Shown here: positions 44,364 through 56,852 of the stretch, one piece after another
How the letters are laid out: every line of letters begins with the position of its first letter
How positions within the stretch are numbered: position 1 is the first letter of the stretch
Source: a phage
DNA length: 64,000 nucleotides
Sequence record: PZ445442.1
Direction: 5' to 3' (one strand)
Translations under genes and position numbers: made by a program
Notes under the pieces: generated by a model
What the model was told of the DNA's origin: nothing
What the model saw: only the letters and a program-made list of their open reading frames with translations
Databases searched by the model: none

Positions 44364-44729
44364 ATGGAACAAATGAACGATCAAGCGTCGGTTGCGATGA
44401 ACGAGCAAGAACAACCTCAAGAATTTTTCTTAGGGTTAAGTAAAGATCAAGTGTCTCTTCTGCTAGTGCTTTCTTCTTTCATGGGAAGACTTCAGGAGCT
44501 TACACAACAGCCAGAGGCTGAACAATTATTCCAGGCTCTGCGTGAAGAAGAAAAATATCGTCGTTTGGACTATGCCTTAGGTTGGGTAGCTCAACAACGA
44601 GATATGCTGATGGCCCTCTCTGGGACCACAAGTTTTGCAATGGGCCTGTTGGCTCAAGTTCAGGACAAATTAATTCAAGCAGGGTTTGCACACACGGCAA
44701 ACACTAACGAAGAACAAGGAGATAAATAA
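44364..44729 (+). CDS. hypothetical protein
   Basis: 121-aa ORF, RBS GGAGA. Confidence 0.45.
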   Translation: MEQMNDQASVAMNEQEQPQEFFLGLSKDQVSLLLVLSSFMGRLQELTQQPEAEQLFQALREEEKYRRLDYALGWVAQQRDMLMALSGTTSFAMGLLAQVQDKLIQAGFAHTANTNEEQGDK

Positions 44730-46000
44730 TGAGCGTTATTCAACAATTCGCTAACCCGATGAATCCGCGTGAAACTGTTTTACTAGCTCACGGCATGATT
44801 AAACGTGTCAGCATCAAGCCTATCAAAGGTGCTGATCCTACAACAGGTATTAAAACCACTGTGTGGCAAGGTAAGAAAATTGAATCCAGCCACACCATCT
44901 CTTTACTGATTTCTGAACTGGATTCCTCTGATAACCTACTTCAAGGTGGTGAAGAAGTTTGGATCAGTATGGGCGATAAGCTGCTTAAACCAGGTCATCA
45001 AGACTCTGTCTCTGTTAAAATTGATGACAAGTGGGAAACCGTAACGCCAGGATGGATCGTAAATATCCCTTTGAAGGCAAACGAGCATAACGGTAAGACC
45101 TACTACAAAGGCTCACTGGCTAAGATGGTTAAGCTGGGTGCAGGAGAGGCTCCAGCAGCGACTCAGCAGCAAAAACAGCAACAAGGTGCACAATCACAAG
45201 GCCAGAAGCAGAAACCTCAGCAGAATGCCAATCAGGGCGTTTTACGCATCTATGGTGATGTGACTCAGATTGTTGGCAACGTGGTTACTGTTAATGACCA
45301 CAAGATTGGCGAAGGTGCTATGGTTGTAACTGATGAGCAGCTTAAAGACCTAGTGGTAGGTGGTCGTGTTGCAGCCATTGTTGACAAAGACACCGGAAAC
45401 ATTATCAGTGGTTTCAAGGCCTATCCTCCTAAGGCAGAGAACGGTACTCAAGGCTCCGGTGGCAAGCGTAAATCCTCTTACGACCCTATTGGTGTGGAGA
45501 CGGGGCATAGCATCAATGCGTTGCAGATCATCCTGGATCGCGGGTTTAAGGTGGACGACCCACTAGGTGTGGCTAAAACACTGCACGTAGTCACCATTGA
45601 GCTTAAGAAAGAGTATGCTCAAGCCACCAACCGAACTGAAGATGAAGTAGGTGCCAGTGTCGGTAATGCGGTGTTGAACGCTTGTCGCCGTATTGACAAG
45701 AAAACGAAAGTTGATGATTTTGCAGCGGCAATTACTGCAGAAGCAAAAGATGTCTTGACTAATCTGGCTGAGCCGTTGTACGATTGGATCAAGAACGGTG
45801 CTGAGTCCACTGACCATCAAGAACCTCAAGCTGCCAAACAGGAAGCCGCTCCACAGCAAAACACTGTAGACGCACCTCCTGTAAATGATGAGGAAGATGA
45901 CCCGATGGGTCAGAATCCGGCGCAGTATGACTTCTGTGATGACATACCTTTCGCTCCGGTAGGTTTGCAATATGGCAAAAGTAGAATCCACGCATTGTAA
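44729..46000 (+). CDS. putative ssDNA-binding protein (SSB-like acidic tail with DDIPF)
   Basis: 423 aa; Gln-rich linker and acidic C-terminal region ending ..[22 protein letters not shown] plus a 17-aa extension that overlaps the next gene. Confidence 0.45.
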
Positions 46001-46595
46001 GAGGTGCATCAAGTGCGGAGAGGTGAAAGACATCTCCGAGTTCTACAAACACCCAAAGATGTCTGACGGTCATCTTAATAAGTGCAAAGAGTGTTGCAAG
46101 AAGGCCAGCAGGGAGGCTGACCAATTTTCCCACGACTCTTCAGAAAAAGGTGTAATACGCGTGCTGTACAAGGCTCAAAAGTGCAACAGCAAGCAAAGAG
46201 GTCACCCGCCTCCGACTTACACCAAAAAAGAGTTTAAGGAGTGGCTATACCTAAACGGTTACAAAGAGTTGTATGATCAGTGGGTAGCCAGCGGATACGA
46301 CAAAAGGAAAAAGCCTTCTTGTGACAGGATAGATGATTTCAAAGGGTACTCTTTTGATAATATCCGTTTAACGACTTGGGGAGAAAATAAAGACAAGCAG
46401 ACAGAGGATATTCTGTTGCATAGAAGCACCAGCGGTAGACGGTGTAAAAATGTAAGGAGGCTGGACATGAATGGCAACGTTCTTAAAGAATGGGTATCCC
46501 ACAATTCTTGTAGAAGAGAAACCGGAATATGTGTTGATTACTACATTCATGAAAAAATTCCAGCCCCAGATGGATACCTCTACGAATACTTTTAG
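45972..46595 (+). CDS. HNH-type homing endonuclease with N-terminal zinc finger
   Basis: 207 aa; CKRCIKCG...CKECCKK zinc-finger-like; [23 protein letters not shown] nuclease motif; overlaps the 3' end of the SSB-like gene. Confidence 0.5.
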
Positions 46596-46610
46596 CACCT
46601 AACTAACATA

Positions 46611-46638
46611 GCCCTGCCCGAAAGGGTGGGGCATTTTT
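46611..46638 (+). terminator. Rho-independent terminator (copy 2 of duplicated terminator)
   Basis: Same GCCCTGCCC-GAAA-GGGTGGGGC hairpin as at 34334, followed by ATTTTT. Confidence 0.6.
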
Positions 46639-46657
46639 GTATAAGGAGATCTGAAAA

Positions 46658-47074
46658 ATGACATTAGAAGATATCATTGTTAAACCTGAGAACTATGACC
46701 AATACAACCTGTCAACTCAATCTGTAGACCTTGGATGCGCCACAGTTAGTGCGTGGCTGGTTAACGGAAAAGAGCTGGACAAGTGCTTAGAAGCTCACAT
46801 GTCTGTTAACAAGTTTCTGGATGAAAATACTCACTGGCTGGAAGGTGCAGGCGTATATGCTTCATGGTTGGAGAGCATGGGCTTTGACTATCAATCTGAT
46901 GAAGGGTGGTGGAGCTATCTAGCTATCTGTCCAGAAACACTGCAATGCTTCATGAAATACTCTGAAGATCTTGAGTACCGAGCGGTGGTTGATAGTGCTA
47001 TTGCCCGTTATAGCCGTAAACCTTTTTCCCACGACATTAAAACTGTGGAAGAGTTTGTTGAAGTTTTCTGTTGA
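46658..47074 (+). CDS. hypothetical protein
   Basis: 138-aa ORF, RBS AAGGAGA. Confidence 0.45.
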   Translation: MTLEDIIVKPENYDQYNLSTQSVDLGCATVSAWLVNGKELDKCLEAHMSVNKFLDENTHWLEGAGVYASWLESMGFDYQSDEGWWSYLAICPETLQCFMKYSEDLEYRAVVDSAIARYSRKPFSHDIKTVEEFVEVFC

Positions 47075-47169
47075 CACAGGTTGAAAGGTGTGCAATTATA
47101 ACTTCATAGACGGGAGGACGTGATGAACGAAGAAAACTGGGATGTATAACTAACAGGAGGCCACTGCCC

Positions 47170-47367
47170 ATGATTTATCGAATCCGTGTAAGAGAAGATG
47201 CACCAGGCTGTTACTTTGACTGGCGTGGGTGGTGGTTTCTCCACCCAATGGATGGACTCACAGATAGAATGCTGGATGCTGCCCTTTATACAGATACCGA
47301 TATAGAATATAATCTCTATCTGAAGGACGGTATAGATAACGGCCTGTTTGAAGCAATTCCTGTGTAA
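47170..47367 (+). CDS. hypothetical protein
   Basis: 65-aa ORF, RBS AGGAGG. Confidence 0.4.
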   Translation: MIYRIRVREDAPGCYFDWRGWWFLHPMDGLTDRMLDAALYTDTDIEYNLYLKDGIDNGLFEAIPV

Positions 47368-47435
47368 GAGGCTGTGATAGCTATGTTTTATGATCTTCCT
47401 GTAGCACCACCACCTGTTGAACCCGGAGAACTAAG

Positions 47436-47861
47436 ATGATCTATGAAATGCCAAAACTGATTCGCGACGATGCCCAAAACGCTCACACCATTATTATGGG
47501 CAAACGCATGGATATTATTTGTCATAGAGATTTCTGGGAAGGAAGTTACTTCACAGAGTATTTTGGTAAACTGGACAATGGTCTGCTGATCCAGTTCTAC
47601 ACCGATGCGGAAAACAACATTCCCTGGGAGTTCGAAACTGAAGATGTCCATAAACTTTTCACCTTCCTCGGTATTAAGGTTAAGGCCAAGTTTGAAGAAG
47701 GTGAGTGCGACGATTGTGGATTTTATGAGGTAACAGATTTCTACCTTCCTAGCGGTAAGAACCTTTACTATGAAAGCCACTTCGGTAACTCCAATATGCC
47801 ACAGTGCTGGACTGAGTTTTTTGAAATTGCGGAAGAGGAGCTGGCTTACCGTGATTATTGA
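47436..47861 (+). CDS. hypothetical protein
   Basis: 141-aa ORF directly upstream of and overlapping the macro-domain gene. Confidence 0.45.
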   Translation: MIYEMPKLIRDDAQNAHTIIMGKRMDIICHRDFWEGSYFTEYFGKLDNGLLIQFYTDAENNIPWEFETEDVHKLFTFLGIKVKAKFEEGECDDCGFYEVTDFYLPSGKNLYYESHFGNSNMPQCWTEFFEIAEEELAYRDY

Positions 47862-48309
47862 TACTGTAGAGGGAGATTTAATCTCCCTTTTTAAGGGCGG
47901 TGCTGGTCACCTGATCCACGGTTGTAACTGCTTCCACACAATGGGCAAGGGTATAGCAAAACAGATTGCCCGTGAGTTTCCTCAAGCACTGTCAGCCGAC
48001 AAAGAGACTAGATACGGTTGCCTAAGTAAACTGGGTGCGTTCTCCCGATGGGAGCACTTATCTCCGATAGGTATTGTCTACGGAATCAATCTATATACCC
48101 AGTTCTACCCAGGACCTAATGCTGAGTATTTCTCAATCCTGAAAGGCTTTGAGCTAGTCAATGAAGTATTCAGCGGATCGACTTTACCATTCTACATCCC
48201 TAAGATCGGGTGCGGCATAGGCGGTTTGAAGTGGGAACACGTAGAGGACGTTATTAACCTTGCCACTTTCGACATAGATATTGTCGTGGTGGAGTACAAA
48301 AAGTGTTGA
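47851..48309 (+). CDS. macro-domain protein (ADP-ribose binding/hydrolase-like)
   Basis: GGAGHLIHGCNCFHTMGKGIAKQI and later IPKIGCGIGGL resemble the two glycine-rich macro-domain motifs; probable GTG start 47851 after RBS GAGGAG. Confidence 0.5.
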   Translation: MIIDTVEGDLISLFKGGAGHLIHGCNCFHTMGKGIAKQIAREFPQALSADKETRYGCLSKLGAFSRWEHLSPIGIVYGINLYTQFYPGPNAEYFSILKGFELVNEVFSGSTLPFYIPKIGCGIGGLKWEHVEDVINLATFDIDIVVVEYKKC

Positions 48310-48560
48310 CGACCATCTTCTGAGGTGATATAGTTTCCACGACAACTAAGAGAGGAGAGCACTGTGGAGACTAAAATCTTAATTCTTGCTGTGGTAGATA
48401 CAACCGAAGGAGCTATATTCGAATCTGCAGGAGGGTATTTCTACCTACCATACGGAAAAAGAACTTCCGAGCCAAGTAAAGATTCAATCCTCAAAGTGTT
48501 CCCGTGTGCTTTCTGGCTGGAGATTTTGGTATAAGATTGCAGAGGATTTGGGAGAGAATT

Positions 48561-48755
48561 ATGAGAAACAAGAAAGAACTTTACTCCGGTGAGTGGATCA
48601 ACGATCAACAGGTGGGAGAGGTAACCTGCTTCCGATGTTTTACCAGGTACAATCTTAAAACTGCACCAAAAAGTGTTCCAAAGACTGACGGTTACTACAT
48701 AAAAGAACCTCATTGCCCAAAATGTAAATGCCGATTGTACTGGAGCAATCTGTAA
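48561..48755 (+). CDS. zinc-ribbon protein
   Basis: 64 aa from ATG 48561 (RBS GGGAGAG); CFRC...CPKCKC. Confidence 0.4.
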   Translation: MRNKKELYSGEWINDQQVGEVTCFRCFTRYNLKTAPKSVPKTDGYYIKEPHCPKCKCRLYWSNL

Positions 48756-48818
48756 GAGGTTGACATCTGAAAACTGCAGTGTATAATATACGCATAAACT
48801 AACAGAGGGTGATGTATT

Positions 48819-49010
48819 ATGGTAATTTTTAACCGGGATGGTATCATAGTTAGACAGCACCCGTTCCTTGAATACTATCAAATTGAGCAATGGTGCTACG
48901 GGGATTGCAGTCACTCCTATGGGCAAAGTTGGGGATATCGTACAGTTTTTGAATCCACAGACCTTGACAAAGTAAAACAGAAAGTTTTAGAACTTCTTAA
49001 CAACAAGTGA
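48819..49010 (+). CDS. hypothetical protein
   Basis: 63-aa ORF. Confidence 0.35.
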   Translation: MVIFNRDGIIVRQHPFLEYYQIEQWCYGDCSHSYGQSWGYRTVFESTDLDKVKQKVLELLNNK

Positions 49011-49020
49011 GTATCGTGCC

Positions 49021-49353
49021 ATGGTAACATTGGAAAGACGTAAAGCTATTGCCGCCACACTGGCAGACATCTTTTGGGATTGTAATTTAAAATCTACCCG
49101 AAATTGTGGTGCATCTGTAGATGTATTATTCCCACGGCCTACTATTGTTGCAATGGGCAACCTGCTCGATGTGGTATATGGAGCATGGGACAAGGAAGGT
49201 GGATTCTATATCTGGCAACCTGACTACGGGACTTGGAAAGAGGTTAGTGGTTCTTCGGACTTCACTCCTGCAGTGGCTAAAATGGATGGCTGGAAAATCT
49301 ATGTCGGTAACGACATGGAACTGAAAGGCGAAATTGTTTACTGGTTACCTTAA
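49021..49353 (+). CDS. hypothetical protein
   Basis: 110-aa ORF. Confidence 0.4.
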   Translation: MVTLERRKAIAATLADIFWDCNLKSTRNCGASVDVLFPRPTIVAMGNLLDVVYGAWDKEGGFYIWQPDYGTWKEVSGSSDFTPAVAKMDGWKIYVGNDMELKGEIVYWLP

Positions 49354-49374
49354 GAAAGTCCAGGAGATAAAGTT

Positions 49375-49620
49375 ATGAACAAAGGGTGGACATTTGTAGA
49401 CGGCGTTAAAAACATGCCTCTAGGAAAGTATATTGTAGCCATGGCAGATGAGAATGGCAAGGTTGATTTCGGAGTTTGCGAGGTTGTTCTTGCAGGATCT
49501 GGTGACTATGCTCACAAAACTGGGATAATTAACGGTCATTTCTACTTTGATTACAACCCTGTTGTGGCGTATATGGCTATGCCAGAGTTCGAGCTCCCAA
49601 AGGAAGGTGCAGATGTTTAA
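49375..49620 (+). CDS. hypothetical protein
   Basis: 81-aa ORF, RBS AGGAGA. Confidence 0.45.
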   Translation: MNKGWTFVDGVKNMPLGKYIVAMADENGKVDFGVCEVVLAGSGDYAHKTGIINGHFYFDYNPVVAYMAMPEFELPKEGADV

Positions 49621-49810: not shown

Positions 49811-50136
49811 CAGAGATCATCATTTCAACTGCAGGGTATGTATTCCTGACAATCATTGCGCTGACTATTCTGGTGGCGGTGTATGGATTTGTTATCCTTC
49901 CTATTCTTGAGACATTTAGTTTGTGTCGGTGTTGGAGAAAAGCTTACGGTCCACAACCATGGAAGGACTGGCCCCACCTGGTGCGCTTAGCGTTCTCTTA
50001 TGCTTACGATCACTCCAGTAGTGCATGCATAACCGGATACCACGCCCACAACTGGAGCTGGGAAGGGTTGAGGAAATGGAATGTTACAAAGACCATACCT
50101 CTGCGCATGTACAAACCTAAAAACAAAGACAACTGA
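49807..50136 (+). CDS. hypothetical membrane protein
   Basis: 109 aa with N-terminal hydrophobic segments; ATGA overlap with upstream gene. Confidence 0.45.
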   Translation: MTEIIISTAGYVFLTIIALTILVAVYGFVILPILETFSLCRCWRKAYGPQPWKDWPHLVRLAFSYAYDHSSSACITGYHAHNWSWEGLRKWNVTKTIPLRMYKPKNKDN

Positions 50137-50439
50137 TACTTGAAAATTCCTGGCATATCAAGTATAAGGGGGATTTCTAAAATGGATTTCCTCCTTTTGA
50201 TATTTCACCGGGCTGGATATTTTAAAATTCTTAGAAAATCAGAAAATGGATCGAAAACTAAAATGGATTTTTCAGAGTAGGCGCGACAAGCTGAATAGCT
50301 CATCCTATCGTTTGCACCATATTCCAGACCACCATTATAGATTTCCCACACATGCTAACCTCCCTCTACTAGAACTTCCTCCACTTACCCTTGACCTTCT
50401 ATGGTAACAATCTAACCACTATCTTGAAGTTGCGGTGCA

Positions 50440-50640
50440 GCTTTCCAGGTACTCGATCTACTTTTCATTTCAGGGCTTGGATTTTCTGAAAATTTTTCTC
50501 GATAAATTTCTCAGTACTCGATCTGTTTTTCGTTTTCTGAATCGGATTTTCTGGAAATCGTTCCGGATCTCGACCTGAAATTTTTGGGGACGAAATCTAT
50601 TTTTCGTTTTCAGAAATGGATTTTTAAAATTTCTATATGG
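50440..50640. repeat. iteron-like imperfect tandem direct repeats in non-coding region
   Basis: Three units of roughly 55-65 bp each containing GTACTCGATCT / TTTTCGTTTTC / GGATTTTCTG; AAAATGGAT recurs at about 50180, 50243, 50260, 50613. Confidence 0.5.
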
Positions 50641-50770
50641 GAATATTTTATGGGGCACTGTTTTATAGGAAATTGTTACGGAGGGTAATTAGCATGCTAA
50701 TTAAATTTATTAAATGCGAGGGATTCTTATTTAGAATTTTGAATGATAATTATTCTCGTTTGCAGAATAA

Positions 50771-50812
50771 CGGGCAGGCCCGGTGATTGTCTCCCGGCCC
50801 CTGCTGCCCCGG
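50771..50812. repeat. GC-rich palindromic element (copy 1)
   Basis: GGCAGGCCCGGTGATTGTCTCC core; inverted copy at 60344-60389. Confidence 0.45.
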
Positions 50813-50908
50813 CTTGTTATTATAGTATCACACAGGACAAAGAAGGCAAGGATTTTTTGCATAAATTTTTAAATGATAATGATAACCGTTCTCATTTTAT
50901 GAAGCGCC

Positions 50909-50950
50909 CATCCCCGGTGGTTGTCTCCCCCGTCACCGGTGCCTGCCGTC
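50909..50950. repeat. GC-rich palindromic element (copy 2, divergent)
   Basis: CCCCGGTGGTTGTCTCCCCCGTCACCGGTGCCTGCC, related to copy 1. Confidence 0.4.
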
Positions 50951-51101
50951 CTTTCGATAGGTATATTATGCCGCCTGGCGGGGCCGCTGTCAACACTTTT
51001 CAAAAAATTTTTCTAACCTGATGCGCTAACCGTTGCAACCTGGCGGGGCCAGCCTGGCAGGTCCGCACTATAAAGTAAACAGCTACAGAAGAGGTACAAA
51101 A

Positions 51102-51227
51102 ATGAAAGGTAATGCTACTCGCCTGGGAAATGTAGTGATTAATGATACGGAAGCTATCGCCCTGGTTGAAAAGGTTATGGCGGGAGCGTTGGAACATAAA
51201 GAAGAGTACGAAAAAAATGGTGGTTAA
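51102..51227 (+). CDS. small early protein
   Basis: 41 aa from ATG 51102 with RBS AGAGG; the track ORF upstream overlaps repeats. Confidence 0.35.
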   Translation: MKGNATRLGNVVINDTEAIALVEKVMAGALEHKEEYEKNGG

Positions 51228-51280
51228 CCTGGCGGGGGGCGGCAGGTGGATTCTATCATAAAAATAATTTAAAATAGTCG

Positions 51281-51308
51281 TTGACAACAAGGTTAATCAT
51301 GGTATTAT
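51281..51308 (+). promoter_or_regulatory. sigma70-like promoter
   Basis: TTGACA-16nt-TATTAT upstream of 51359 gene. Confidence 0.5.
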
Positions 51309-51358
51309 TACCCTACAAGGTGAACAACACCGCACTAACCAGTAAAGAGGATAAATTT

Positions 51359-51556
51359 ATGAACGCATACGGGATCAAAGTACGTCGCAACACTCGCCAG
51401 GTGGTCACCAATCAAGTGATTTGCCGGGTGGATGTAACCATCAACAACGGGCAAGGCCTTTATAAATTTCGTCGCGGCCATAGCTATACCCTGCAACAGC
51501 TTAATCGTTGCGCCCTGACAAAAGGTCAGATCAACCACTGGTTTAATAAAAAATAA
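51359..51556 (+). CDS. small early protein
   Basis: 65 aa from ATG 51359 (RBS AAAGAGGA); the track ORF start coincides with the promoter -35. Confidence 0.45.
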   Translation: MNAYGIKVRRNTRQVVTNQVICRVDVTINNGQGLYKFRRGHSYTLQQLNRCALTKGQINHWFNKK

Positions 51557-51559
51557 GTA

Positions 51560-51588
51560 TTGACATACAGTCCGACACCAAATACACT
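51560..51588 (+). promoter_or_regulatory. sigma70-like promoter
   Basis: TTGACA-17nt-TACACT upstream of 51621 gene. Confidence 0.5.
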
Positions 51589-51620
51589 AAAAGCACAAAA
51601 GACACTAAGAGGATAAAATC

Positions 51621-52019
51621 ATGAAAACCACTACCTTTAATTTTGATAATGCAGACTTTTCTTTTTCTGATGTCAAGAACTGCCGCCGTGATCGTGGATT
51701 TTACAAGGCTTATAATCTGGTGGGCCTGGACGATGACAATAATTTGCACGAAGTAGCTGAGATCCGGTATTATGCCGCCGCCAGCGGGAACACTCACTAC
51801 TGCGTGTTTTGGATTCACGACAACAAGAACAATAAGTACGGTTATACTGGCGGCAAGGCGAGCGGTCACGGTTACGATAAAGCTAACGCAGCACTTGAGA
51901 GCGCATTAAATGCTATGGGGATCACTGCCGACGGCTGGATCTACGAAGAAGAGTTTTTGTCGGCACTTGCTGACCACCTGGGCTATAAAAAACACATTGT
52001 AACATGCGCCCACGAATAA
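51621..52019 (+). CDS. hypothetical early protein
   Basis: 132-aa ORF, RBS AAGAGGA. Confidence 0.5.
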   Translation: MKTTTFNFDNADFSFSDVKNCRRDRGFYKAYNLVGLDDDNNLHEVAEIRYYAAASGNTHYCVFWIHDNKNNKYGYTGGKASGHGYDKANAALESALNAMGITADGWIYEEEFLSALADHLGYKKHIVTCAHE

Positions 52020-52025
52020 AAATCA

Positions 52026-52053
52026 TTGACACGCTGCAAAATTTAAGTAAACT
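52026..52053 (+). promoter_or_regulatory. sigma70-like promoter
   Basis: TTGACA-16nt-TAAACT; followed by stem-loop 52064-52082. Confidence 0.45.
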
Positions 52054-52063
52054 AGACACAAAA

Positions 52064-52082
52064 GGCGGGAATGTTTCCCGCC
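52064..52082 (+). other. 5'-UTR GC stem-loop (GGCGGGAA-TGT-TTCCCGCC)
   Basis: Perfect 8-bp stem, 3-nt loop, no downstream T-tract; between promoter and RBS of 52102 gene. Confidence 0.5.
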
Positions 52083-52101
52083 AGCACAAAGGAAAAAGAT
52101 C

Positions 52102-52497
52102 ATGAATAAGAACGTACGCCGCATCATGAACGAACTGGCAAACGATGAAAAAATTATTGATATGCATTTGGTCAACATTTGCCGCCGTTGTGTAACATAT
52201 AACAACCGCGCCGCAAAAGCGCGTGAGATGAACGCAAAAGGCACCTTAAAGCCCTTTCAGGTGGTTGTAAAATCTATAACTAGCGCAGCAGGCCAGGCGC
52301 AGGACCACAACAACGAGAGCGCTAATATTGATCCGTCTTACGTAATGAAACGGATCCGGACTTGCAAGAATAAAGAGCAGGTATATAACGTCATAGATTG
52401 GCTGGACTCCCTGGGCGATGTGGTTTACAATAGGTTTTCTGCAGCTATCGAGATCCAGCTTGACAGATTGGACGGGAAAGTACTAAAAACTTATTGA
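52102..52497 (+). CDS. hypothetical early protein
   Basis: 131-aa ORF, RBS AAAGGAAAAAG. Confidence 0.5.
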   Translation: MNKNVRRIMNELANDEKIIDMHLVNICRRCVTYNNRAAKAREMNAKGTLKPFQVVVKSITSAAGQAQDHNNESANIDPSYVMKRIRTCKNKEQVYNVIDWLDSLGDVVYNRFSAAIEIQLDRLDGKVLKTY

Positions 52498-52499
52498 GT

Positions 52500-52545
52500 T
52501 TATTTTTAGATGGCCTTGACACCAGGGCCATCAATAAAGTAAACT
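52500..52545 (+). promoter_or_regulatory. repeated palindrome-containing promoter cassette, copy 1
   Basis: TTATTTTTAGATGGCCTTGACACCAGGGCCATCAATAAAGTAAACT; TTGACA flanked by inverted repeat GATGGCC/GGCCATC; near-identical copies at 53120 and 56853. Confidence 0.5.
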
Positions 52546-52576
52546 AACCACAGTTGAGCGGAAAGGGGGCTTAAAG

Positions 52577-52696
52577 ATGAGCACTACACGCCAGCACACA
52601 AAGGTAACCATCATCGTTTGCATCATTGGGTACATCCTGGCGCAAATGTTGATGGGTAGCGCCAACGGTGTCGCAAAATTTTTCTTAAACTTTTAA
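52577..52696 (+). CDS. small hydrophobic peptide (39 aa)
   Basis: MSTTRQHTKVTIIVCIIGYILAQMLMGSANGVAKFFLNF; RBS AAAGGGGG; below the 60-aa track cutoff. Confidence 0.4.
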   Translation: MSTTRQHTKVTIIVCIIGYILAQMLMGSANGVAKFFLNF

Positions 52697-52724
52697 TTGA
52701 CAAGCTAACTTAAATCGATATAAT
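52697..52724 (+). promoter_or_regulatory. sigma70-like promoter
   Basis: TTGACA-16nt-TATAAT; followed by stem-loop GGGAA-AAC-TTCCC (52737-52749). Confidence 0.55.
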
Positions 52725-52775
52725 AAGCACATAAACGGGAAAACTTCCCAGAACACACAAAAGGAGAAAAACACC

Positions 52776-53117
52776 ATGACTACTATGACCGCCTCAGAAA
52801 AAGCTATGCAGATCGCTGAACTGAAAAAACAGATCGCAGACCTTGAGAATAAGATCGATAACTTTGAAATCGACGAGGACAAGTACGACGAAAACTATGA
52901 TGAATGGTTAGACGAGATCTACGGCGAAATTATGATCGGAAACATTTCTTTTCTTCCGTCGCGTATCCTCAAGGAGCTAGATCCTATCGCTTACCGCTGC
53001 GGATTTAGCGACTACATCGACAGCCTGGATATTGAGGACGATGAAGAATACCAGGAATTACAGACAGAGTTAGAAGAAGCAAAAGAAGAGCTTGCGGAGC
53101 TGGAAGAAAACGAGTAA
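52776..53117 (+). CDS. highly acidic early protein
   Basis: 113 aa, very Asp/Glu-rich with coiled-coil-like N-terminus; RBS AAAGGAGAAA. Confidence 0.5.
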   Translation: MTTMTASEKAMQIAELKKQIADLENKIDNFEIDEDKYDENYDEWLDEIYGEIMIGNISFLPSRILKELDPIAYRCGFSDYIDSLDIEDDEEYQELQTELEEAKEELAELEENE

Positions 53118-53119
53118 GC

Positions 53120-53165
53120 TTATTTTTAGATGGCCTTGACACCAGGGCCATCAATAAAGTAAACT
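53120..53165 (+). promoter_or_regulatory. repeated palindrome-containing promoter cassette, copy 2
   Basis: Identical 46-bp element to 52500-52545. Confidence 0.5.
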
Positions 53166-53206
53166 TTATACTGTTAACACTGAACTAATGCATAGGAGTT
53201 AAAACC

Positions 53207-53452
53207 ATGGCAGCACTAATCACCAAATATTATGCCCCTACCAACACCAAAAGCGCCCGTATCATGGTAAAAGGCTTCGGACGTAAAAAGGTGTACACCT
53301 GGGATTATGCCTTAGACACGGAAGACAACTACACCAACGCAATGACCGATTTTATTAATGAACTAAATAAGCAGATCTTGACAAGTTATAAAGTGACCGA
53401 TATTGCTTATATAGGTGAAGGCGGGATCTGTTTTGTAGGCATTGTGAAATAG
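53207..53452 (+). CDS. hypothetical early protein
   Basis: 81-aa ORF, RBS AGGAG. Confidence 0.45.
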   Translation: MAALITKYYAPTNTKSARIMVKGFGRKKVYTWDYALDTEDNYTNAMTDFINELNKQILTSYKVTDIAYIGEGGICFVGIVK

Positions 53453-53500
53453 TTATTTTTTCGGTGGTCCTGGTTGCAGGGCCATCTATAAAGATAATTT
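53453..53500 (+). promoter_or_regulatory. degenerate copy of the repeated promoter cassette
   Basis: TTATTTTTTCGGTGGTCCTGGTTGCAGGGCCATCTATAAAGATAAT: same layout with substitutions. Confidence 0.4.
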
Positions 53501-53526
53501 ATTAACACCATGAAAGGAGAAAGTAC

Positions 53527-54066
53527 ATGATCAGCGGGGCAAGTTTTATTATTGGCGCTATTGCTACGGCTTTAATTGTAAATAAGATCCAGGATAAAAA
53601 GGAAAGAGGAAGTACCGCCCTTGCAGAATATCCATTTTGGGCATTCAACGATAACGAAGATTATATTATAAAGTATAAAAATAAAGAAGGTGACCAAGTA
53701 ACACCGCGACCGATCCCGGCTTACAAAATGCAGGAAACACTATACCGCCTGGAGGCGGGAGGCGCAAAAATTGTAGACTTTTGGGGATACGACCACACAG
53801 ATCAGGAAGTTATAAAGCGCCGTATCCGGGCTATTCAGGCCAATATTGAAGTTAGCAAGGGGGAATATATGAAAATTAATTTCGAGAAAATTGTAAAGCG
53901 CCCTCATGATTCCGAAGAGCTGCCAGAACGCCGCCAGCGTAACAATAAACTGAATAAGCCAAAAAGGTTTGGGAAGATCTGGCGTAATCATTATGATCGT
54001 AAATTGCCCGGCCTACTTTTGGAACGTGAACGACAGGCAGAACGATACCGCCATAAAGACAAATAA
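53527..54066 (+). CDS. hypothetical membrane-anchored early protein
   Basis: 179 aa; N-terminal hydrophobic helix then basic C-terminus; RBS AAAGGAGAAAG. Confidence 0.5.
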   Translation: MISGASFIIGAIATALIVNKIQDKKERGSTALAEYPFWAFNDNEDYIIKYKNKEGDQVTPRPIPAYKMQETLYRLEAGGAKIVDFWGYDHTDQEVIKRRIRAIQANIEVSKGEYMKINFEKIVKRPHDSEELPERRQRNNKLNKPKRFGKIWRNHYDRKLPGLLLERERQAERYRHKDK

Positions 54067-54074
54067 CAACCAAC

Positions 54075-54100
54075 GCCCCGCCATTGTGCGGGGCTTTTTA
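54075..54100 (+). terminator. Rho-independent terminator
   Basis: GCCCCGC-CATTGT-GCGGGGC followed by TTTTTATTT. Confidence 0.65.
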
Positions 54101-54307
54101 TTTCTATCCTACGAATAGCGCCCCTGGTTGGCCCCACAAACGCCACAAAAGCCCCTACCTATGCAATCCCCTTTCTTGACCTGAAAACAACGTCTAGGGC
54201 CGTTTTATGGCGTTAAAAATATTATTGACAGTGATTTTATTCAAAGCTTGACACCTTGGAATAGTCCGGATATACTAACCACATCAAAGCAAGAAGGAGT
54301 AAACGCC

Positions 54308-54568
54308 ATGCGTAAATTAAAAAATTTTGATAAAGTAGATGTTGTCCTGAATAATTTTTACTACTGCAATAATAAAGCCGTTTGGTGGCGTGATAGCTCC
54401 ACCGATAAAGTTAAAGCGCGCTTTCTCCAGGGGCACTGGCAAGGCCGCCCAGTGATTAAAATCTTAGGGCAATTGGTAGCGTTTAAAAATTGCCACCGTG
54501 TTGACGACGTTGAAGATATTTTGAACATTTTACGCCACAATAATTTAAAAAATAGTGTTGACAAGTAA
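54308..54568 (+). CDS. hypothetical early protein
   Basis: 86 aa from ATG 54308 (RBS AAGGAG); promoter TTGACA-17-TATACT upstream at about 54208-54236. Confidence 0.45.
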   Translation: MRKLKNFDKVDVVLNNFYYCNNKAVWWRDSSTDKVKARFLQGHWQGRPVIKILGQLVAFKNCHRVDDVEDILNILRHNNLKNSVDK

Positions 54569-54585
54569 GCCTCAATAAGTATACT
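54558..54585 (+). promoter_or_regulatory. sigma70-like promoter
   Basis: TTGACA-16nt-TATACT; followed by stem-loop GGCGGGAA-AAC-TTCCCGCC (54596-54614). Confidence 0.55.
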
Positions 54586-54642
54586 TAAACACACAGGCGG
54601 GAAAACTTCCCGCCACTAACAAAGAAAATAGGAGAAAATATC

Positions 54643-55266
54643 ATGACCACCGTTAACATTACTACAGGTTACAATTTATCTTTCGACGTGCTGACCGACG
54701 AACAAAAAGAAAAAGCCGTTGAAATGGTCCGCGAAAGAGAAGAACACAGCGGGGATAATTTTTTTGCAGAAAGTGTAATTGAATACTATAAAGAATATGT
54801 TTTTCCAGAGTATGGCCTTGAAGATACCGAAGTACATTGGTCAGGCTTTTGGTGCCAGGGTGACGGCGCGTCAATCAGTGCGGAAAACGTGGATTTAGAA
54901 AAATTCTTGCGTAAAGTAAAGGCCCTGACCAAGTTCCGATCAATTCGTCACTTGTTCGGCACAATGCACGATGGCGAGCTATCCGCAAGTGTTGAGCGTG
55001 ATCCATATAGCCGCTATAGTCACGAAAACACTGTAAGCGGGTACATCGATACTACATGGCTAGACCTGACCGCCAAACAAGAAAATAAAGTGGAAGATCT
55101 GGAAGAGCTGATCACCGAGACGGTACGGGAGCTATCCCGCAAGGTTTACGTAGACCTGGAGGAGGCCTATCTTGAGCAATTTACCGCCGAAAACTTGATC
55201 GGCCTTATCGAGGCAAATGATTGGCGGTTTGATGTGGATGAGCATGGCGAGATGAGTTTTTCATAA
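54643..55266 (+). CDS. hypothetical acidic early protein
   Basis: 207-aa ORF, RBS AGGAGAAAA. Confidence 0.5.
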   Translation: MTTVNITTGYNLSFDVLTDEQKEKAVEMVREREEHSGDNFFAESVIEYYKEYVFPEYGLEDTEVHWSGFWCQGDGASISAENVDLEKFLRKVKALTKFRSIRHLFGTMHDGELSASVERDPYSRYSHENTVSGYIDTTWLDLTAKQENKVEDLEELITETVRELSRKVYVDLEEAYLEQFTAENLIGLIEANDWRFDVDEHGEMSFS

Positions 55267-55311
55267 ATAAAGTGTTGCAATAATCTAAAAACCTGCTATA
55301 TTAAAACTCAA

Positions 55312-55330
55312 GGGGCAAGACGTTTGCCCC
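55312..55330 (+). other. 5'-UTR GC stem-loop
   Basis: GGGGCAA-GACG-TTGCCCC between a TTGCAA/TATATT promoter-like element and the RBS of 55356. Confidence 0.45.
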
Positions 55331-55355
55331 CACACAAAACAAAGAGGAAAACATC

Positions 55356-55736
55356 ATGAAAAACACTACTAAAGCTATTGACACCGTCATGTTTAACCTG
55401 GTTACATTCCGTGAAGATATGAAAGATCTTCCTCGTGAAACAGTGTGCGACCATATCGAAAACTATCGCAAACTAATCAAAGAGTTGCCTTTAAAACGTG
55501 ATCAATATGCGGCTAACGCCATGCTTAATGCCATGATCAAAAAGATGATCCAGTGTGATTTAACCCTGGCCTATGATTATGCAGGCGGTCGTTTTGCAGT
55601 ATACAATCAGCCCGTGCCCGGTATGAGCACCACCGAAGAATTGCACGCGCTCAATCTAAAACAAGACGTGTGGGATAGTATGCCTCGCGTGGTGGTATGG
55701 GTAGAAAGCGGAAAGATTTACGGCGATAATTTTTAA
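55356..55736 (+). CDS. hypothetical early protein
   Basis: 126-aa ORF, RBS AAGAGGAAAA. Confidence 0.5.
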   Translation: MKNTTKAIDTVMFNLVTFREDMKDLPRETVCDHIENYRKLIKELPLKRDQYAANAMLNAMIKKMIQCDLTLAYDYAGGRFAVYNQPVPGMSTTEELHALNLKQDVWDSMPRVVVWVESGKIYGDNF

Positions 55737-55743
55737 TCAGGTA

Positions 55744-55770
55744 GCAGGCGGCATATTTGCCGCCTTATTG
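55744..55770 (+). terminator. Rho-independent terminator
   Basis: AGGCGGCA-TATT-TGCCGCCT followed by TATTGTT. Confidence 0.5.
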
Positions 55771-55800
55771 TTAATCAGAACTGTAAAAGAGGTACATAGA

Positions 55801-56172
55801 ATGGAATTTATTATTTTGGCTGTATTTGTTGCCTTGTTCAACGCCTGGATCGCTGGCAAGATGGGTAGATCCGCCTTTTTATGGTTTATTATATCTATTT
55901 TCCTGGGGGTGGTTGCAACTATTGTACTTGTTATCCTTGCAATTGTTGACAAGGGGAATAATAGAAAGGGTAAAGTATTTTCAGACCTGTACGACGCTCA
56001 AACGTTTGTCAACGCCTATTATAGTGATCTTCCAGTCTCCCTACGCTGCAGCCTGGCACAACAAGTTTTCGATGAGGCTAAAACCAGAGATCAAGCCCAT
56101 GAGATATGTTTAACTGAGGCGGATCGCCTATTTGAGAGGAATAGAAAATATGTGGGCCAACCGTTTAAATAA
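55801..56172 (+). CDS. small membrane protein
   Basis: 123 aa from ATG 55801 (RBS AAGAGG); two predicted TM helices in the N-terminal half. Confidence 0.45.
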   Translation: MEFIILAVFVALFNAWIAGKMGRSAFLWFIISIFLGVVATIVLVILAIVDKGNNRKGKVFSDLYDAQTFVNAYYSDLPVSLRCSLAQQVFDEAKTRDQAHEICLTEADRLFERNRKYVGQPFK

Positions 56173-56371
56173 TGCCACATTAATTAATCCCTTTAGTGAA
56201 GATTTGAAGCCAGCCGCCTGGCGTGATGGATTCAATAACGAACGCTTTATTTTCAAGCCTGATCTTGAGGAATTTTATAACAATGGATCGAACAACGACA
56301 GAGATAATTTTTCTTGTGGTGTGCGTAGTGATGGTACTCCTGGGGGCCATTGTAAACCACGTCACTACTAA
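56150..56371 (+). CDS. hypothetical early protein
   Basis: 73 aa from ATG 56150 (RBS GAGAGGAA). Confidence 0.4.
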   Translation: MWANRLNNATLINPFSEDLKPAAWRDGFNNERFIFKPDLEEFYNNGSNNDRDNFSCGVRSDGTPGGHCKPRHY

Positions 56372-56391
56372 CAGGGGGAAAGGGGGAGACG

Positions 56392-56511: not shown

Positions 56512-56514
56512 GAA

Positions 56515-56849: not shown

Positions 56850-56852
56850 AAT

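What the first reader, a model, noticed from the sequence alone, without database searches (positions are those of the whole stretch)
47851..48309. Phage-encoded macro-domain protein, a candidate counter to ADP-ribosylation-based defence
The protein carries sequences resembling the two glycine-rich macro-domain motifs (HGCNCFHTMGKGIAKQI and IPKIGCGIGGL). Macro domains bind or hydrolyse ADP-ribose and its derivatives. In a phage this could plausibly reverse ADP-ribosylation of DNA or protein by host toxins, or degrade ADP-ribose-derived signals. It overlaps and is probably co-translated with the unknown 141-aa gene at 47436..47861, which may be a functional partner.
Basis: partly seen in the sequence, partly recalled or inferred. 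Interest (0 to 1): 0.55.

Follow-up and report, generated by a model that had tools for sequence, protein, structure and literature searches.

The report
Phage macrodomain, likely anti-DarT enzyme
This E. coli phage gene encodes a small ADP-ribose-removing enzyme related to a phage T4 protein recently shown to defeat the bacterial DarTG2 defence, so it is a real but already understood kind of phage counter-defence gene.

Summary
The window is Escherichia phage EmilHeitz (Bas49, Vequintavirus). The ORF at 47851..48309 is real. It matches GenBank CDS bas49_0094, annotated "hypothetical", and is under purifying selection (dN/dS 0.12-0.20).

It encodes a 152-aa stand-alone macrodomain. The AlphaFold2 model has pLDDT 96.3. 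The best solved-structure matches are TARG1, Poa1p, DarG and SCO6735.

It is a full-length homologue of T4 Tk.4 (39% identity, E 7e-41). A 2025 preprint named Tk.4 AdfM and showed it is needed to resist DarTG2.

The family has an invariant Gln (Q84) where DarG has its catalytic Lys80. SCO6735 has the same Gln and cleaves thymidine-linked ADP-ribose from DNA.

The most likely function is therefore removal of DarT2-placed ADP-ribose from phage DNA.

The main rival is an ADPR-1''-phosphate phosphatase ("Adpp"), a function shown for members of the same PHROG that sit in NARP1 operons. It is disfavoured because EmilHeitz has no NARP1 genes.

The overlapping 141-aa upstream gene is not a conserved partner. 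It sits directly upstream only in Vequintavirus and has no recognisable fold.

No assay has been done on a Vequintavirus copy.

The parts
47851..48309 (+). Macrodomain CDS (152 aa plus stop), equal to bas49_0094. A stand-alone TARG1/DarG-class (ALC1-like) macrodomain of the T4 Tk.4/AdfM family.
   Evidence: ORF and annotation; Pfam Macro, phrog_335, weak DarG-model hits; 39% identity to T4 Tk.4, E 7e-41; model pLDDT 96.3, macro fold; dN/dS 0.12-0.20.
47835..47840 (+). Shine-Dalgarno-like GAGGAG, 10 nt before the GTG start. It lies inside the end of the upstream gene.
   Evidence: Read directly from the sequence. The start position is conserved in relatives.
47917..47967 (+). Motif 1, HGCNCFHTMGKGIAKQI (residues 23-39). 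It contains H23, the invariant N26 (codon 47926-47928) and the first glycine-rich phosphate-binding loop G32-K33-G34-I35-A36.
   Evidence: N26, G24, G34 and A36 are invariant in 65 homologues. N26 aligns with DarG N22 and SCO6735 N27, and K33 with DarG K29 and SCO6735 K34. Mutating those residues cripples the enzymes (PMC5179494; PMC9411070).
48088..48102 (+). N80-L-Y-T83-Q84 strand end. Q84 (codon 48100-48102) occupies the position of the catalytic Lys80 of DarG and Lys84 of TARG1.
   Evidence: N80 and Q84 are invariant, and Y82 and T83 are at least 90% conserved, in 65 homologues. HMMER alignments put Q84 opposite the K of DarG 'NFPTKKHW' and opposite the Q of SCO6735/BT1257 'NMIGQHG'. SCO6735 Q85A is inactive (PMC9411070).
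48196..48228 (+). Motif 2, IPKIGCGIGGL (residues 116-126). This is the second glycine-rich (diphosphate-binding) loop, G120-C-G122-I-G124-G125.
   Evidence: P117 and G120 are invariant, and I119, G122 and G125 are at least 90% conserved. The loop aligns with DarG G117/G119/G121 and SCO6735 'IGCGLAGG'. DarG G119E is impaired (PMC5179494).
47436..47861 (+). Upstream 141-aa gene (bas49_0093, phrog_8157, unknown function). It overlaps the macrodomain start by 11 nt. It is probably co-transcribed and may be translationally coupled, but it is not a conserved partner.
   Evidence: ORF; restricted distribution, variable position; model pLDDT 78.8, no fold match in PDB or BFVD; no Pfam, NCBIfam or PADLOC hit.
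47071..47313 (+). Two sigma-70-like promoter matches (47071-47099 and 47285-47313) upstream of the 65-aa, 141-aa and macrodomain genes. No terminator-like site lies between them and 48309. This suggests host-RNAP (early) transcription. The evidence is weak.
   Evidence: 10 of 12 matches each. The region holds 15 sites against 8.3 +/- 3.5 in shuffles, and the nearest upstream terminator-like hairpin is at 46611-46632.
48561..48755 (+). 64-aa CxxC...CxxC zinc-binding protein (bas49_0096, phrog_4864, Pfam PF23903 Phage_zn_bind_2). It is the window gene most often found near the macrodomain in other phages. Listed as context, not as a proven component.
   Evidence: sequence and family; within 4 kb in 16 of 80 viral macrodomain loci; downstream in all 12 whose coordinates were printed; directly downstream of the macrodomain in RB49.

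Best explanation
The gene encodes a stand-alone macrodomain ADP-ribosyl hydrolase of the phage Tk.4/AdfM family. In effect it is an "orphan antitoxin".

Proposed mechanism: when a DarT2-type toxin of a DarTG2 defence system ADP-ribosylates thymidines in single-stranded phage DNA, the enzyme binds the ADP-ribose in its two glycine-rich loops. It then cleaves the bond between ribose C1'' and the base. This restores replicable DNA and releases free ADP-ribose.

Catalysis is probably lysine-independent, as in SCO6735. Q84, held in place by N26, positions the distal ribose for attack by water.

What is shown here: the gene is real and conserved; it has the macro fold and the binding-loop motifs; it is homologous to T4 Tk.4; and Gln sits at the catalytic position.

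What is inferred: the substrate (dT-ADPr DNA), the DarTG2 target, early expression, and the catalytic mechanism.
For: 1. Full-length homology to T4 Tk.4: 39% identity, E 7e-41, with the shared motifs HGCNCFHTMG, NLYTQFxPGPNxEY and P[KR]IG[AC]GIG.

2. In a transposon screen, tk.4 was the single T4 gene depleted on a DarTG2 host. A clean knockout sensitised T4 to DarTG2, and the gene was named adfM (10.1101/2025.11.20.689424).

3. A second, more distant phage macrodomain, PhiKZ gp104, removes DarT2 ADP-ribose from DNA in vitro and protects the phage (PMC13309987).

4. The DarG macrodomain alone is sufficient as an antitoxin (PMC5179494).

5. Of the residues that contact ADP-ribose in Taq DarG, L9, N22, Q34, T79, G117, G119 and G121 are identical here, and V31 is conservatively replaced by I35. 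K29 is also identical (alignments; residue list).

6. The one major difference from DarG, K80 to Q84, is invariant in the family. It is exactly the residue found in SCO6735, which cleaves thymidine-linked ADP-ribose from DNA, needs Q85 and N27, and protects against DarT (PMC9411070).

7. The only hits to defence-protein model libraries are DarG models: PADLOC 46 bits and NCBIfam 45 bits.

8. The high-confidence model has TARG1, Poa1p, DarG and SCO6735 as its best solved neighbours.

9. EmilHeitz is closer to T4 Tk.4 (121 bits) than to NARP1-associated macrodomains (67-77 bits).

10. The gene appears to be core to Vequintavirus. About 117 phage records carry a copy at 80% or more amino-acid identity, close to the 120 records that match the locus DNA. 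It is under purifying selection.
Against: - No Vequintavirus macrodomain has been tested. The Bas54 screens in the HIDEN-SEQ preprint did not include DarTG2.
- For T4 Tk.4 only genetics is reported, not enzymology.
- At 39% identity, substrate preference can differ.
- The same PHROG (phrog_335) also holds the Adpp-type phosphatases and PhiKZ AdfM.
- A neighbour-joining tree places EmilHeitz beside the T4 clade, but only 51 of 100 bootstraps exclude the Adpp orthologue.
- The rank order of single-sequence PDB hits does not separate the subtypes.
- The protein lacks the DarG catalytic lysine and the longer lysine-bearing mobile loop that SCO6735 uses for DNA.
- One public Vequintavirus contig carries a deletion that destroys the gene, so it is dispensable in at least some settings.
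Confidence: 0.6

Rival explanations
1. It is an Adpp-like ADP-ribose-1''-phosphate phosphatase. When an aRES-type defence degrades NAD+ to nicotinamide and ADPR-1''-P, the macrodomain removes the 1''-phosphate. ADP-ribose can then be recycled to NAD+.
For: - Phage macrodomains associated with NARP1 operons are purified, active ADPR-1''-P phosphatases that overcome aRES (10.64898/2026.01.28.702374).
- The orthologous operon protein of Vibrio phage Chester (gp175, between the Adps and Namat genes) is 34% identical to the EmilHeitz protein at E 9e-20.
- The NARP1-adjacent macrodomain of Acinetobacter phage Aci01-1 is 35% identical.
- Both share the N-x-Y-[TG]-Q motif and fall in phrog_335.
- Poa1p, the yeast phosphatase, is among the best structural matches.
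- Relatives are widely annotated 'phosphatase'.
Against: - EmilHeitz has no Adps or Namat homologue anywhere in record positions 1-137,999 (tblastn with two query sets, E up to 0.1). The annotation lists none either. The product would have no phage pathway to feed.
- In the cited work the phosphatase was useless without both NARP1 enzymes.
- EmilHeitz scores lower against the NARP1-associated proteins (67-77 bits) than against T4 Tk.4 (121 bits).
- It lacks their insertion of about 7 residues after the Gln.
- Only 2 of 80 related viral loci have a NARP1-like gene nearby.
Confidence: 0.15
2. It serves the phage's own NAD+-consuming enzymes or reverses protein ADP-ribosylation. For example, it could deacetylate O-acetyl-ADP-ribose made by the phage sirtuin-domain protein. 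Or it could remove ADP-ribose from proteins modified by host or phage transferases.
For: - EmilHeitz encodes a 'sirtuin domain NAD-dependent deacetylase' (bas49_0213).
- TARG1-class macrodomains, including SCO6735, also hydrolyse protein-linked ADP-ribose.
- Several database names for homologues read 'O-acetyl-ADP-ribose deacetylase'.
- Sirtuin-macrodomain pairs are known in bacteria (own knowledge, not tested here).
Against: - The sirtuin gene is about 52 kb away on the other strand.
- No neighbour of the macrodomain is conserved across lineages: 28 upstream and 35 downstream neighbour families in 82 loci.
- The family is present in T4, where its knockout phenotype is DarTG2-specific.
- The database names are automatic transfers, not tests.
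Confidence: 0.08
3. It acts on ADP-ribosylated RNA rather than DNA, for example uracil-linked ADP-ribose, protecting phage transcripts or tRNAs.
For: TARG1, DarG and especially SCO6735 hydrolyse uracil-linked ADP-ribose on ssRNA in vitro (PMC13036486). The EmilHeitz protein shares the SCO6735-type Gln.
Against: No bacterial defence that ADP-ribosylates uracil in RNA came up in the papers read. DarT did not modify RNA. The T4 homologue's phenotype is against DarTG2.
Confidence: 0.05
4. It works only together with the overlapping 141-aa protein, as a two-component anti-defence module. The partner would supply targeting or toxin binding, like the C-terminal domain of DarG.
For: - The 11-nt overlap and the absence of an intervening terminator make co-expression likely.
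- AdfN of T4 is reported to need an unknown phage factor (PMC11825919).
- The stand-alone macrodomain lacks DarG's toxin-binding domain.
Against: - The 141-aa gene is found in 177 phage records against 2769 for the macrodomain.
- It is adjacent upstream only in Vequintavirus. It lies 1.2-1.4 kb downstream in L007/L008 and about 9 kb away in RB49.
- T4 has the vs gene at that position, with a similar 4-nt overlap.
- The 141-aa protein has no family, defence-model or fold match.
- Gene overlap is routine in phage genomes (own knowledge).
Confidence: 0.05

Closest known systems
T4 Tk.4 = AdfM (anti-DarT factor Macrodomain; HIDEN-SEQ preprint 10.1101/2025.11.20.689424)
   Same: - Same length (152 vs 155 aa) and collinear over the whole protein, at 39% identity and E 7e-41.
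- Identical HGCNCFHTMG and NLYTQFxPGPNxEY motifs, including Gln at the DarG-Lys position.
- Both are stand-alone genes in clusters of small phage genes.
- Both fall in phrog_335.
   Different: - Different phage family (Vequintavirus vs Tevenvirinae) and different neighbours. T4 has vs/tk.3, while EmilHeitz has phrog_8157 and phrog_15268 genes.
- K33 here vs Ser in T4 in loop 1; GCGIGG vs GAGIGK in loop 2.
- The anti-DarTG2 phenotype is shown only for T4.
Krischvirus RB49 macrodomain (uncharacterised)
   Same: The closest non-Vequintavirus relative, at about 70% identity. The downstream 64-aa zinc-binding gene is also shared.
   Different: It sits in a T4-like tk region. The 141-aa gene homologue lies about 9 kb away. 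There are no functional data.
PhiKZ gp104 = AdfM of chimalliviruses (PMC13309987)
   Same: A stand-alone phage macrodomain in phrog_335. Biochemically it removes DarT2 ADP-ribose from DNA. It has the conserved Asn (N23).
   Different: Only about 20% identity (pairwise E 1e-4), with no hit at E 1e-3 in the set search. It keeps the DarG-type catalytic Lys (K78, 'MFPTKDNW'), and it is imported into the phage nucleus.
DarG antitoxin macrodomain (Taq 5M31/5M3E, Mtb 5M3I)
   Same: Top solved-structure sequence match (E 1.2e-6; profile E 3.6e-18). Same fold (TM 0.75). Most ADP-ribose-contacting residues are conserved.
   Different: There is no C-terminal DarT-binding domain and no adjacent darT. It scores 45 bits against the 250-bit cutoff of the DarG equivalog model. 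Catalytic K80 is replaced by Q84.
SCO6735 of Streptomyces coelicolor (5E3B; PMC9411070) and BT1257 (2FG1/2AFC)
   Same: A stand-alone ALC1-like macrodomain with Gln at the Lys position, and with the H-x-C-N motif, the loop-1 Lys and IGCG(L/I)(A/G)GG. SCO6735 cleaves dT-ADPr on DNA and protects against DarT without a catalytic lysine.
   Different: About 22% identity. It is bacterial and chromosomal. Its longer mobile loop after the Gln carries K89, which contributes to DNA activity. The phage protein has the short loop QFYPGPN.
Adpp, the NARP1-associated macrodomain phosphatase (Vibrio phage Gary; orthologue Chester gp175; Acinetobacter phage Aci01-1 gp129)
   Same: Same PHROG, similar size, 34-35% identity, and the same Asn and Gln.
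   Different: Adpp is embedded between or next to the Adps and Namat genes, which EmilHeitz lacks. It has an insertion of about 7 residues after the Gln. It scores lower against EmilHeitz than T4 Tk.4 does.
Human TARG1 (4J5S) and yeast Poa1p (6LFR)
   Same: Best Foldseek matches (E 4e-9, TM 0.72-0.78). The C-terminal 'P[RK]IGCG...W[E]xV' segment is very similar to TARG1.
   Different: The TARG1 catalytic dyad K84/D125 is absent, replaced by Q84 and a Gly of the GCGIGG loop. Both are eukaryotic with different physiological substrates.

Membership tests
Macro domain superfamily (Pfam PF01661) | Score above the Pfam gathering threshold | tested here: met
   28 bits against a cutoff of 22, E 2.2e-6. 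Only profile positions 1-31 match.
Macro domain superfamily (Pfam PF01661) | Three-layer alpha/beta/alpha macro fold | tested here: met
   AlphaFold2 model with pLDDT 96.3. 170 PDB matches at E <= 0.001; the best-listed are macrodomains or macrodomain-like folds, with TM 0.72-0.78 to TARG1, DarG and Poa1p.
Macro domain superfamily (Pfam PF01661) | ADP-ribose pocket formed by two glycine-rich loops and a conserved Asn | tested here: met
   G32-K-G34-I-A36 and G120-C-G122-I-G124-G125 are conserved, and N26 is invariant. They align with the ligand-contacting residues of DarG. This is tested at sequence level only; no ligand docking was possible.
ALC1-like (TARG1/DarG/SCO6735/Poa1p) macrodomain class | Closest solved relatives belong to this class rather than to the MacroD, PARG or viral X-domain classes | tested here: met
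   A profile search of the PDB returns only DarG, BT1257, SCO6735, TARG1 and Poa1p at E 1e-10 to 1e-18. The top 18 Foldseek hits are the same set.
T4 Tk.4 / AdfM family | Full-length sequence homology to T4 Tk.4 with the same motifs | tested here: met
   39% identity over 153 columns, E 7e-41. Both fall in phrog_335. EmilHeitz groups next to the T4 clade in a neighbour-joining tree, with weak support.
T4 Tk.4 / AdfM family | Required for phage growth on a DarTG2-expressing host | not testable with these tools
   Shown for T4 only. No report was found for Vequintavirinae.
DarG antitoxin (NCBIfam NF048014 equivalog; PADLOC DarG) | Score at or above the curated cutoff | tested here: not met
   45.2 bits against a cutoff of 250. 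PADLOC DarG scores 46 bits.
DarG antitoxin (NCBIfam NF048014 equivalog; PADLOC DarG) | C-terminal DarT-binding domain | tested here: not met
   The protein is 152 aa and matches only profile positions 3-141 of 338.
DarG antitoxin (NCBIfam NF048014 equivalog; PADLOC DarG) | Catalytic lysine (Taq K80) | tested here: not met
   Q84 aligns with K80 and is invariant in 65 homologues.
DarG antitoxin (NCBIfam NF048014 equivalog; PADLOC DarG) | Encoded next to a darT toxin gene | tested here: not met
   The neighbours are small phage ORFs of PHROGs with unknown function. The upstream gene has no PADLOC hit.
SCO6735-type lysine-independent dT-ADPr hydrolases | Gln at the catalytic-Lys position, held by the conserved Asn | tested here: met
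   Q84 and N26 align with SCO6735 Q85 and N27. Both are invariant. Their roles are from PMC9411070.
SCO6735-type lysine-independent dT-ADPr hydrolases | Extended mobile loop with a DNA-binding lysine (K89) | tested here: not met
   The loop after Q84 is short (FYPGPN), against 'HGMKTGSKGAP' in SCO6735.
SCO6735-type lysine-independent dT-ADPr hydrolases | Hydrolysis of thymidine-linked ADP-ribose on ssDNA | not testable with these tools
   This needs an enzyme assay.
Adpp / NARP1-AP phosphatase | Gene located in or beside an Adps-Namat (NARP1) operon | tested here: not met
   tblastn with the Aci01-1 and Chester proteins finds no Adps or Namat homologue in EmilHeitz record positions 1-137,999. 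None is annotated.
Adpp / NARP1-AP phosphatase | Sequence grouping with NARP1-associated macrodomains | tested here: inconclusive
   34-35% identity and 67-77 bits, lower than to T4 (121 bits). However, only 51 of 100 bootstraps separate them, and they share a PHROG.
Adpp / NARP1-AP phosphatase | ADPR-1''-phosphate phosphatase activity | not testable with these tools
   This needs LC-MS with the purified protein.

The most novel reading that the evidence does not exclude
The Tk.4-type phage macrodomains, including this one, may be general "C1''-erasers". They would use a lysine-free, Gln-dependent active site to hydrolyse more than one 1''-substituent of ADP-ribose: the thymine N-glycoside made by DarT2, and the 1''-phosphate made by aRES-type NADases, and perhaps uracil-ADPr on RNA. 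One small gene would then blunt several NAD+-based defences. The AdfM/Adpp split inside phrog_335 would reflect genomic context rather than a change of chemistry.
Probability: 0.2. Interest if true: 0.55.

Novelty: new member of a known kind. Interest (0 to 1): 0.3.

Why it matters
The EmilHeitz gene, like most of its Vequintavirus orthologues, is still deposited as "hypothetical protein" or as a generic "phosphatase". It can now be annotated as a Tk.4/AdfM-family macrodomain.

That predicts rV5-like phages, which are of interest for therapy and biocontrol, are intrinsically resistant to DarTG2. It also predicts that deleting this gene would expose them to it.

The comparison shows that a single PHROG (phrog_335) mixes three kinds of protein with experimental support:
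- the T4-type AdfM, with Gln at the catalytic position;
- the PhiKZ-type AdfM, with Lys there;
- the Adpp phosphatase.

Automatic labels on the 2769 phage genome records with a homologue (about 5% of the collection) are therefore unreliable. Genomic context, meaning the presence of NARP1, is currently the best discriminator.

Tried and rejected
1. The 141-aa upstream gene as a partner.
- Family searches (Pfam, NCBIfam, PADLOC) gave nothing, and PHROG gave only an unknown-function family.
- The homologue search gave only 4 proteins.
- The AlphaFold2 model has pLDDT 78.8 and no significant match in the PDB or BFVD. The afdb50 library was unavailable.
- Synteny across 82 loci argues against a conserved pairing.

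2. T4 Tk.3 as a homologue of the downstream 64-aa zinc-binding protein. There is no evident similarity.

3. PDB hit ranking to separate the AdfM and Adpp types. The rank orders differ without any pattern.

4. Phylogeny to separate them. The topology favours the T4 side, but the bootstrap is only 51/100 on 150 columns. A first attempt timed out.

5. Literature on DarTG2 against Vequintavirinae or on other roles of Tk.4. Nothing was found beyond the HIDEN-SEQ preprint.

6. A search for NARP1 genes in EmilHeitz was negative.

7. The 179-aa in-frame ATG ORF (47770) was rejected. Homologues start at the GTG position, and that ORF would overlap the upstream gene by 92 nt.
Full report
Identity of the window and the observation.
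Bases 46500-49500 are 100% identical to Escherichia phage EmilHeitz (Bas49, MZ501062.1). This is a Vequintavirus (rV5-like myovirus) of the BASEL collection. Window coordinate = record coordinate - 32682. The reported ORF 47851..48309 (+) is exactly GenBank CDS bas49_0094, "hypothetical protein". It starts with GTG, preceded at 10 nt by GAGGAG (47835-47840). It overlaps the TGA of the upstream 141-aa gene (47436..47861) by 11 nt. An in-frame ATG at 47770 gives a 179-aa ORF. Relatives in other phages start with ATG at the position of the GTG (MII/VxT), so the 152-aa form is the real one. Both quoted motifs are present, at residues 23-39 and 116-126. Nei-Gojobori dN/dS against four relatives is 0.12-0.20, so the gene is maintained by selection.

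What the protein is.
Pfam Macro is passed, at 28 bits against a cutoff of 22, on the N-terminal motif only. phrog_335 ("phosphatase") matches over the full length at E 7e-59. The only hits in defence-oriented model libraries are DarG models, and they fall far below the family cutoff: NCBIfam 45 bits against 250, and PADLOC 46 bits. By sequence, the closest solved proteins are the DarG macrodomains (5M3I, 5M31), BT1257 (2FG1/2AFC), SCO6735 (5E3B), TARG1 (4J5Q) and Poa1p (6LFQ). An AlphaFold2 model built on 65 homologues has mean pLDDT 96.3 and pTM 0.91. Foldseek against the PDB returns the same proteins first, with probability 1.00 and TM 0.72-0.78. Viral X-domains and macroH2A follow further down. 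The protein is therefore a stand-alone macrodomain of the ALC1-like (TARG1/DarG) class.

Active site.
In 65 homologues, G24, N26, G34, A36, N80, Q84, P117 and G120 are invariant. H23, C27, M31, Y82, T83, I119, G122 and G125 are at least 90% conserved. The HMMER alignments to Taq and Mtb DarG can be read against the residues that contact ADP-ribose in Taq DarG (PMC5179494).
- L9, N22, Q34, T79, G117, G119 and G121 are identical here (L10, N26, Q38, T83, G120, G122, G124).
- V31 is conservatively replaced by I35.
- K29, whose K29E mutant is impaired, is K33 here.
- The striking difference is that the catalytic K80 of DarG (K84 of TARG1) is Q84 here, within the invariant motif N-x-Y-T-Q.
- The same Gln occurs in SCO6735 and BT1257 ("NMIGQHG").

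SCO6735 cleaves thymidine-linked ADP-ribose from DNA and protects Streptomyces from DarT. It loses all activity in Q85A and nearly all in N27S. The authors proposed a water-mediated, lysine-independent mechanism (PMC9411070). A Gln at this position is therefore compatible with DNA de-ADP-ribosylation.

Link to a phenotype.
The protein is collinear with T4 Tk.4 at 39% identity and E 7e-41. The two share HGCNCFHTMG, NLYTQFxPGPNxEY and P[KR]IG[AC]GIG. In the HIDEN-SEQ preprint, tk.4 was the single T4 gene depleted on a DarTG2 host. A clean knockout became DarTG2-sensitive, and the gene was named adfM (10.1101/2025.11.20.689424). Earlier work had shown that T4 lacking AdfA and AdfN stays DarTG2-resistant, and that DarT2 modifies thymidine (PMC11825919). 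Independently, PhiKZ gp104, also named AdfM, removes DarT2 ADP-ribose from DNA in vitro and protects chimalliviruses (PMC13309987). PhiKZ gp104 is only about 20% identical to the EmilHeitz protein and keeps the DarG-type Lys. The DarG macrodomain alone suffices as an antitoxin. The closest relative outside Vequintavirus is the RB49 (Krischvirus) protein at about 70% identity. The family is widespread: tblastn finds a homologue in 2769 of 50,697 phage records. About 117 of those are at 80% or more identity, which matches the roughly 120 Vequintavirus-like records.

A serious rival within the same family.
A 2026 preprint shows that macrodomain proteins inside NARP1 operons ("Adpp", from Vibrio phage Gary) are ADPR-1''-phosphate phosphatases. 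They let NARP1 rebuild NAD+ after attack by aRES (10.64898/2026.01.28.702374). I located the equivalent operon in the congeneric Vibrio phage Chester, in the order Adps, gp175, Namat. I also found a NARP1-adjacent macrodomain in Acinetobacter phage Aci01-1. Both proteins are 34-35% identical to the EmilHeitz protein, carry N-x-Y-[TG]-Q, and fall in phrog_335. T4 Tk.4 and PhiKZ gp104 fall in the same PHROG. The PHROG therefore mixes at least two demonstrated functions.

Three observations favour the AdfM side for EmilHeitz.
- The bit score to T4 is 121, against 67-77 to the NARP1-associated proteins. Those proteins score 88 with each other.
- The NARP1-associated proteins have an insertion of about 7 residues after the Gln that T4, RB49 and EmilHeitz lack.
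- EmilHeitz has no Adps or Namat homologue in record positions 1-137,999, even at E 0.1, and none is annotated. In the cited work the phosphatase was useless without both NARP1 enzymes.

The separation is not clean. A neighbour-joining tree puts EmilHeitz and RB49 beside the T4 clade, but only 51 of 100 bootstraps exclude the Chester protein. PDB hit order does not discriminate either. Both reactions break a bond at ribose C1'', so dual activity is chemically plausible. That is an inference.

The proposed partner.
The 141-aa gene is in phrog_8157 and has no Pfam, NCBIfam or PADLOC hit. It occurs in 177 phage records. Among 80 IMG/VR loci encoding a relative of the macrodomain, it lies within 4 kb in four. 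In two Vequintavirus loci it is directly upstream, and in the sister lineage (L007/L008) it lies 1.2-1.4 kb downstream. In RB49 it is about 9 kb from the macrodomain. Across 82 loci, the gene immediately upstream of the macrodomain belongs to 28 different families and the gene downstream to 35. T4 has vs at that position, with a 4-nt overlap. The 141-aa protein's model (pLDDT 78.8) has no significant match in the PDB or BFVD. Co-transcription is likely, because there are promoter-like sites at 47071-47099 and 47285-47313 and no terminator before 48309. A functional partnership is not supported. The window gene most often found near the macrodomain elsewhere is the 64-aa zinc-binding protein at 48561-48755 (PF23903, phrog_4864). 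It lies within 4 kb in 16 of 80 loci, downstream in all 12 printed, including RB49 and some T4-like phages. Shared ancestry of the tk region may explain this.

Other rivals.
EmilHeitz encodes a sirtuin-domain protein (bas49_0213). An O-acetyl-ADP-ribose or protein de-ADP-ribosylation role is therefore conceivable, but that gene is about 52 kb away and no such link is conserved. TARG1-class enzymes also remove uracil-linked ADP-ribose from RNA in vitro (PMC13036486), but the papers read describe no bacterial defence that makes that modification.

Verdict.
The gene is a previously unlabelled member of a known kind, the Tk.4/AdfM macrodomain counter-defence family. The most likely function is removal of DarT2-placed ADP-ribose from phage DNA through a Gln-dependent active site (confidence about 0.6). 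The main rival is an Adpp-like phosphatase role (about 0.15). No Vequintavirus copy has been tested, so the decisive experiments are a knockout on a DarTG2 host and substrate assays with the purified protein. Interest is modest (0.3). The finding improves annotation and predicts a phenotype, but it would not surprise a specialist in 2026.

Noticed in passing
window 47591-47600 and 48099-48108; locus L091 2501-2866: A 10-bp direct repeat, CCAGTTCTAC, occurs once in the 141-aa gene and once in the macrodomain gene, encoding QFY in both. One public 135.5-kb Vequintavirus contig (Logan ERR11560567) carries the 508-bp deletion between the two copies. The result is an in-frame 121-aa fusion (P0017) that lacks the macrodomain's N-terminal half. 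This is either a natural loss-of-function variant or an assembly artefact. The retained upstream part is 98.8% identical to the window, but the macrodomain part only 80%, which suggests a recombination boundary.
   Followed up: yes
window 48561-48755 (+): A 64-aa CxxC...CxxC protein (Pfam PF23903 Phage_zn_bind_2, phrog_4864). It lies within 4 kb of the macrodomain in 16 of 80 related viral loci (downstream in the 12 whose coordinates were printed), including RB49 and some T4-like phages. T4 Tk.3 is not obviously related. The function is unknown.
   Followed up: partly
phrog_335 (window 47851-48309; L002, L004, L086, L090): A single PHROG labelled 'phosphatase' contains T4 AdfM (Gln type), PhiKZ AdfM (Lys type) and the NARP1-associated Adpp orthologues. 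The automatic 'phosphatase' label on more than 2700 phage genome records does not distinguish these functions.
   Followed up: yes
window 45972-46595 (+): A putative homing endonuclease (phrog_1035, EndoVII/HNH-like zinc-finger N-terminus) overlaps the end of the 423-aa gene at 44729-46000. A strong terminator-like hairpin follows at 46611-46632. Many close relatives align only from query base 91-105 onward, which suggests the endonuclease gene is a presence/absence insertion among Vequintaviruses.
   Followed up: partly
hit lists: About 16 GenBank records named 'Campylobacter phage' (host Campylobacter jejuni) are 90-99% identical to E. coli Vequintavirus genomes at this locus. The host labels look doubtful.
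   Followed up: no
outside the window: MZ501062.1 132688-133449 (-), bas49_0213: The phage encodes a sirtuin-domain, NAD-dependent deacetylase-like protein. It is a second NAD+/ADP-ribose-related gene that might interact metabolically with the macrodomain.
   Followed up: no
window about 61954-64000 (record 94636-97081): A stretch of about 2.4 kb without annotated genes separates the rightward and leftward gene blocks. The HIDEN-SEQ preprint reports that the equivalent region of about 2 kb in Bas54 tolerates no transposon insertions. ARAGORN finds no tRNA in window 50000-64000. Its nature (origin or regulatory RNA?) is open.
   Followed up: partly
window 48760-48787 (+): A perfect sigma-70 consensus promoter match, TTGACA-16-TATAAT (12 of 12), lies upstream of the 63-aa gene at 48819. 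Another good match (TTGACG-17-TATAGT with an extended-10 TG) lies at 48306-48334, directly after the macrodomain stop. The region looks like a string of early, host-RNAP-transcribed minigenes.
   Followed up: no
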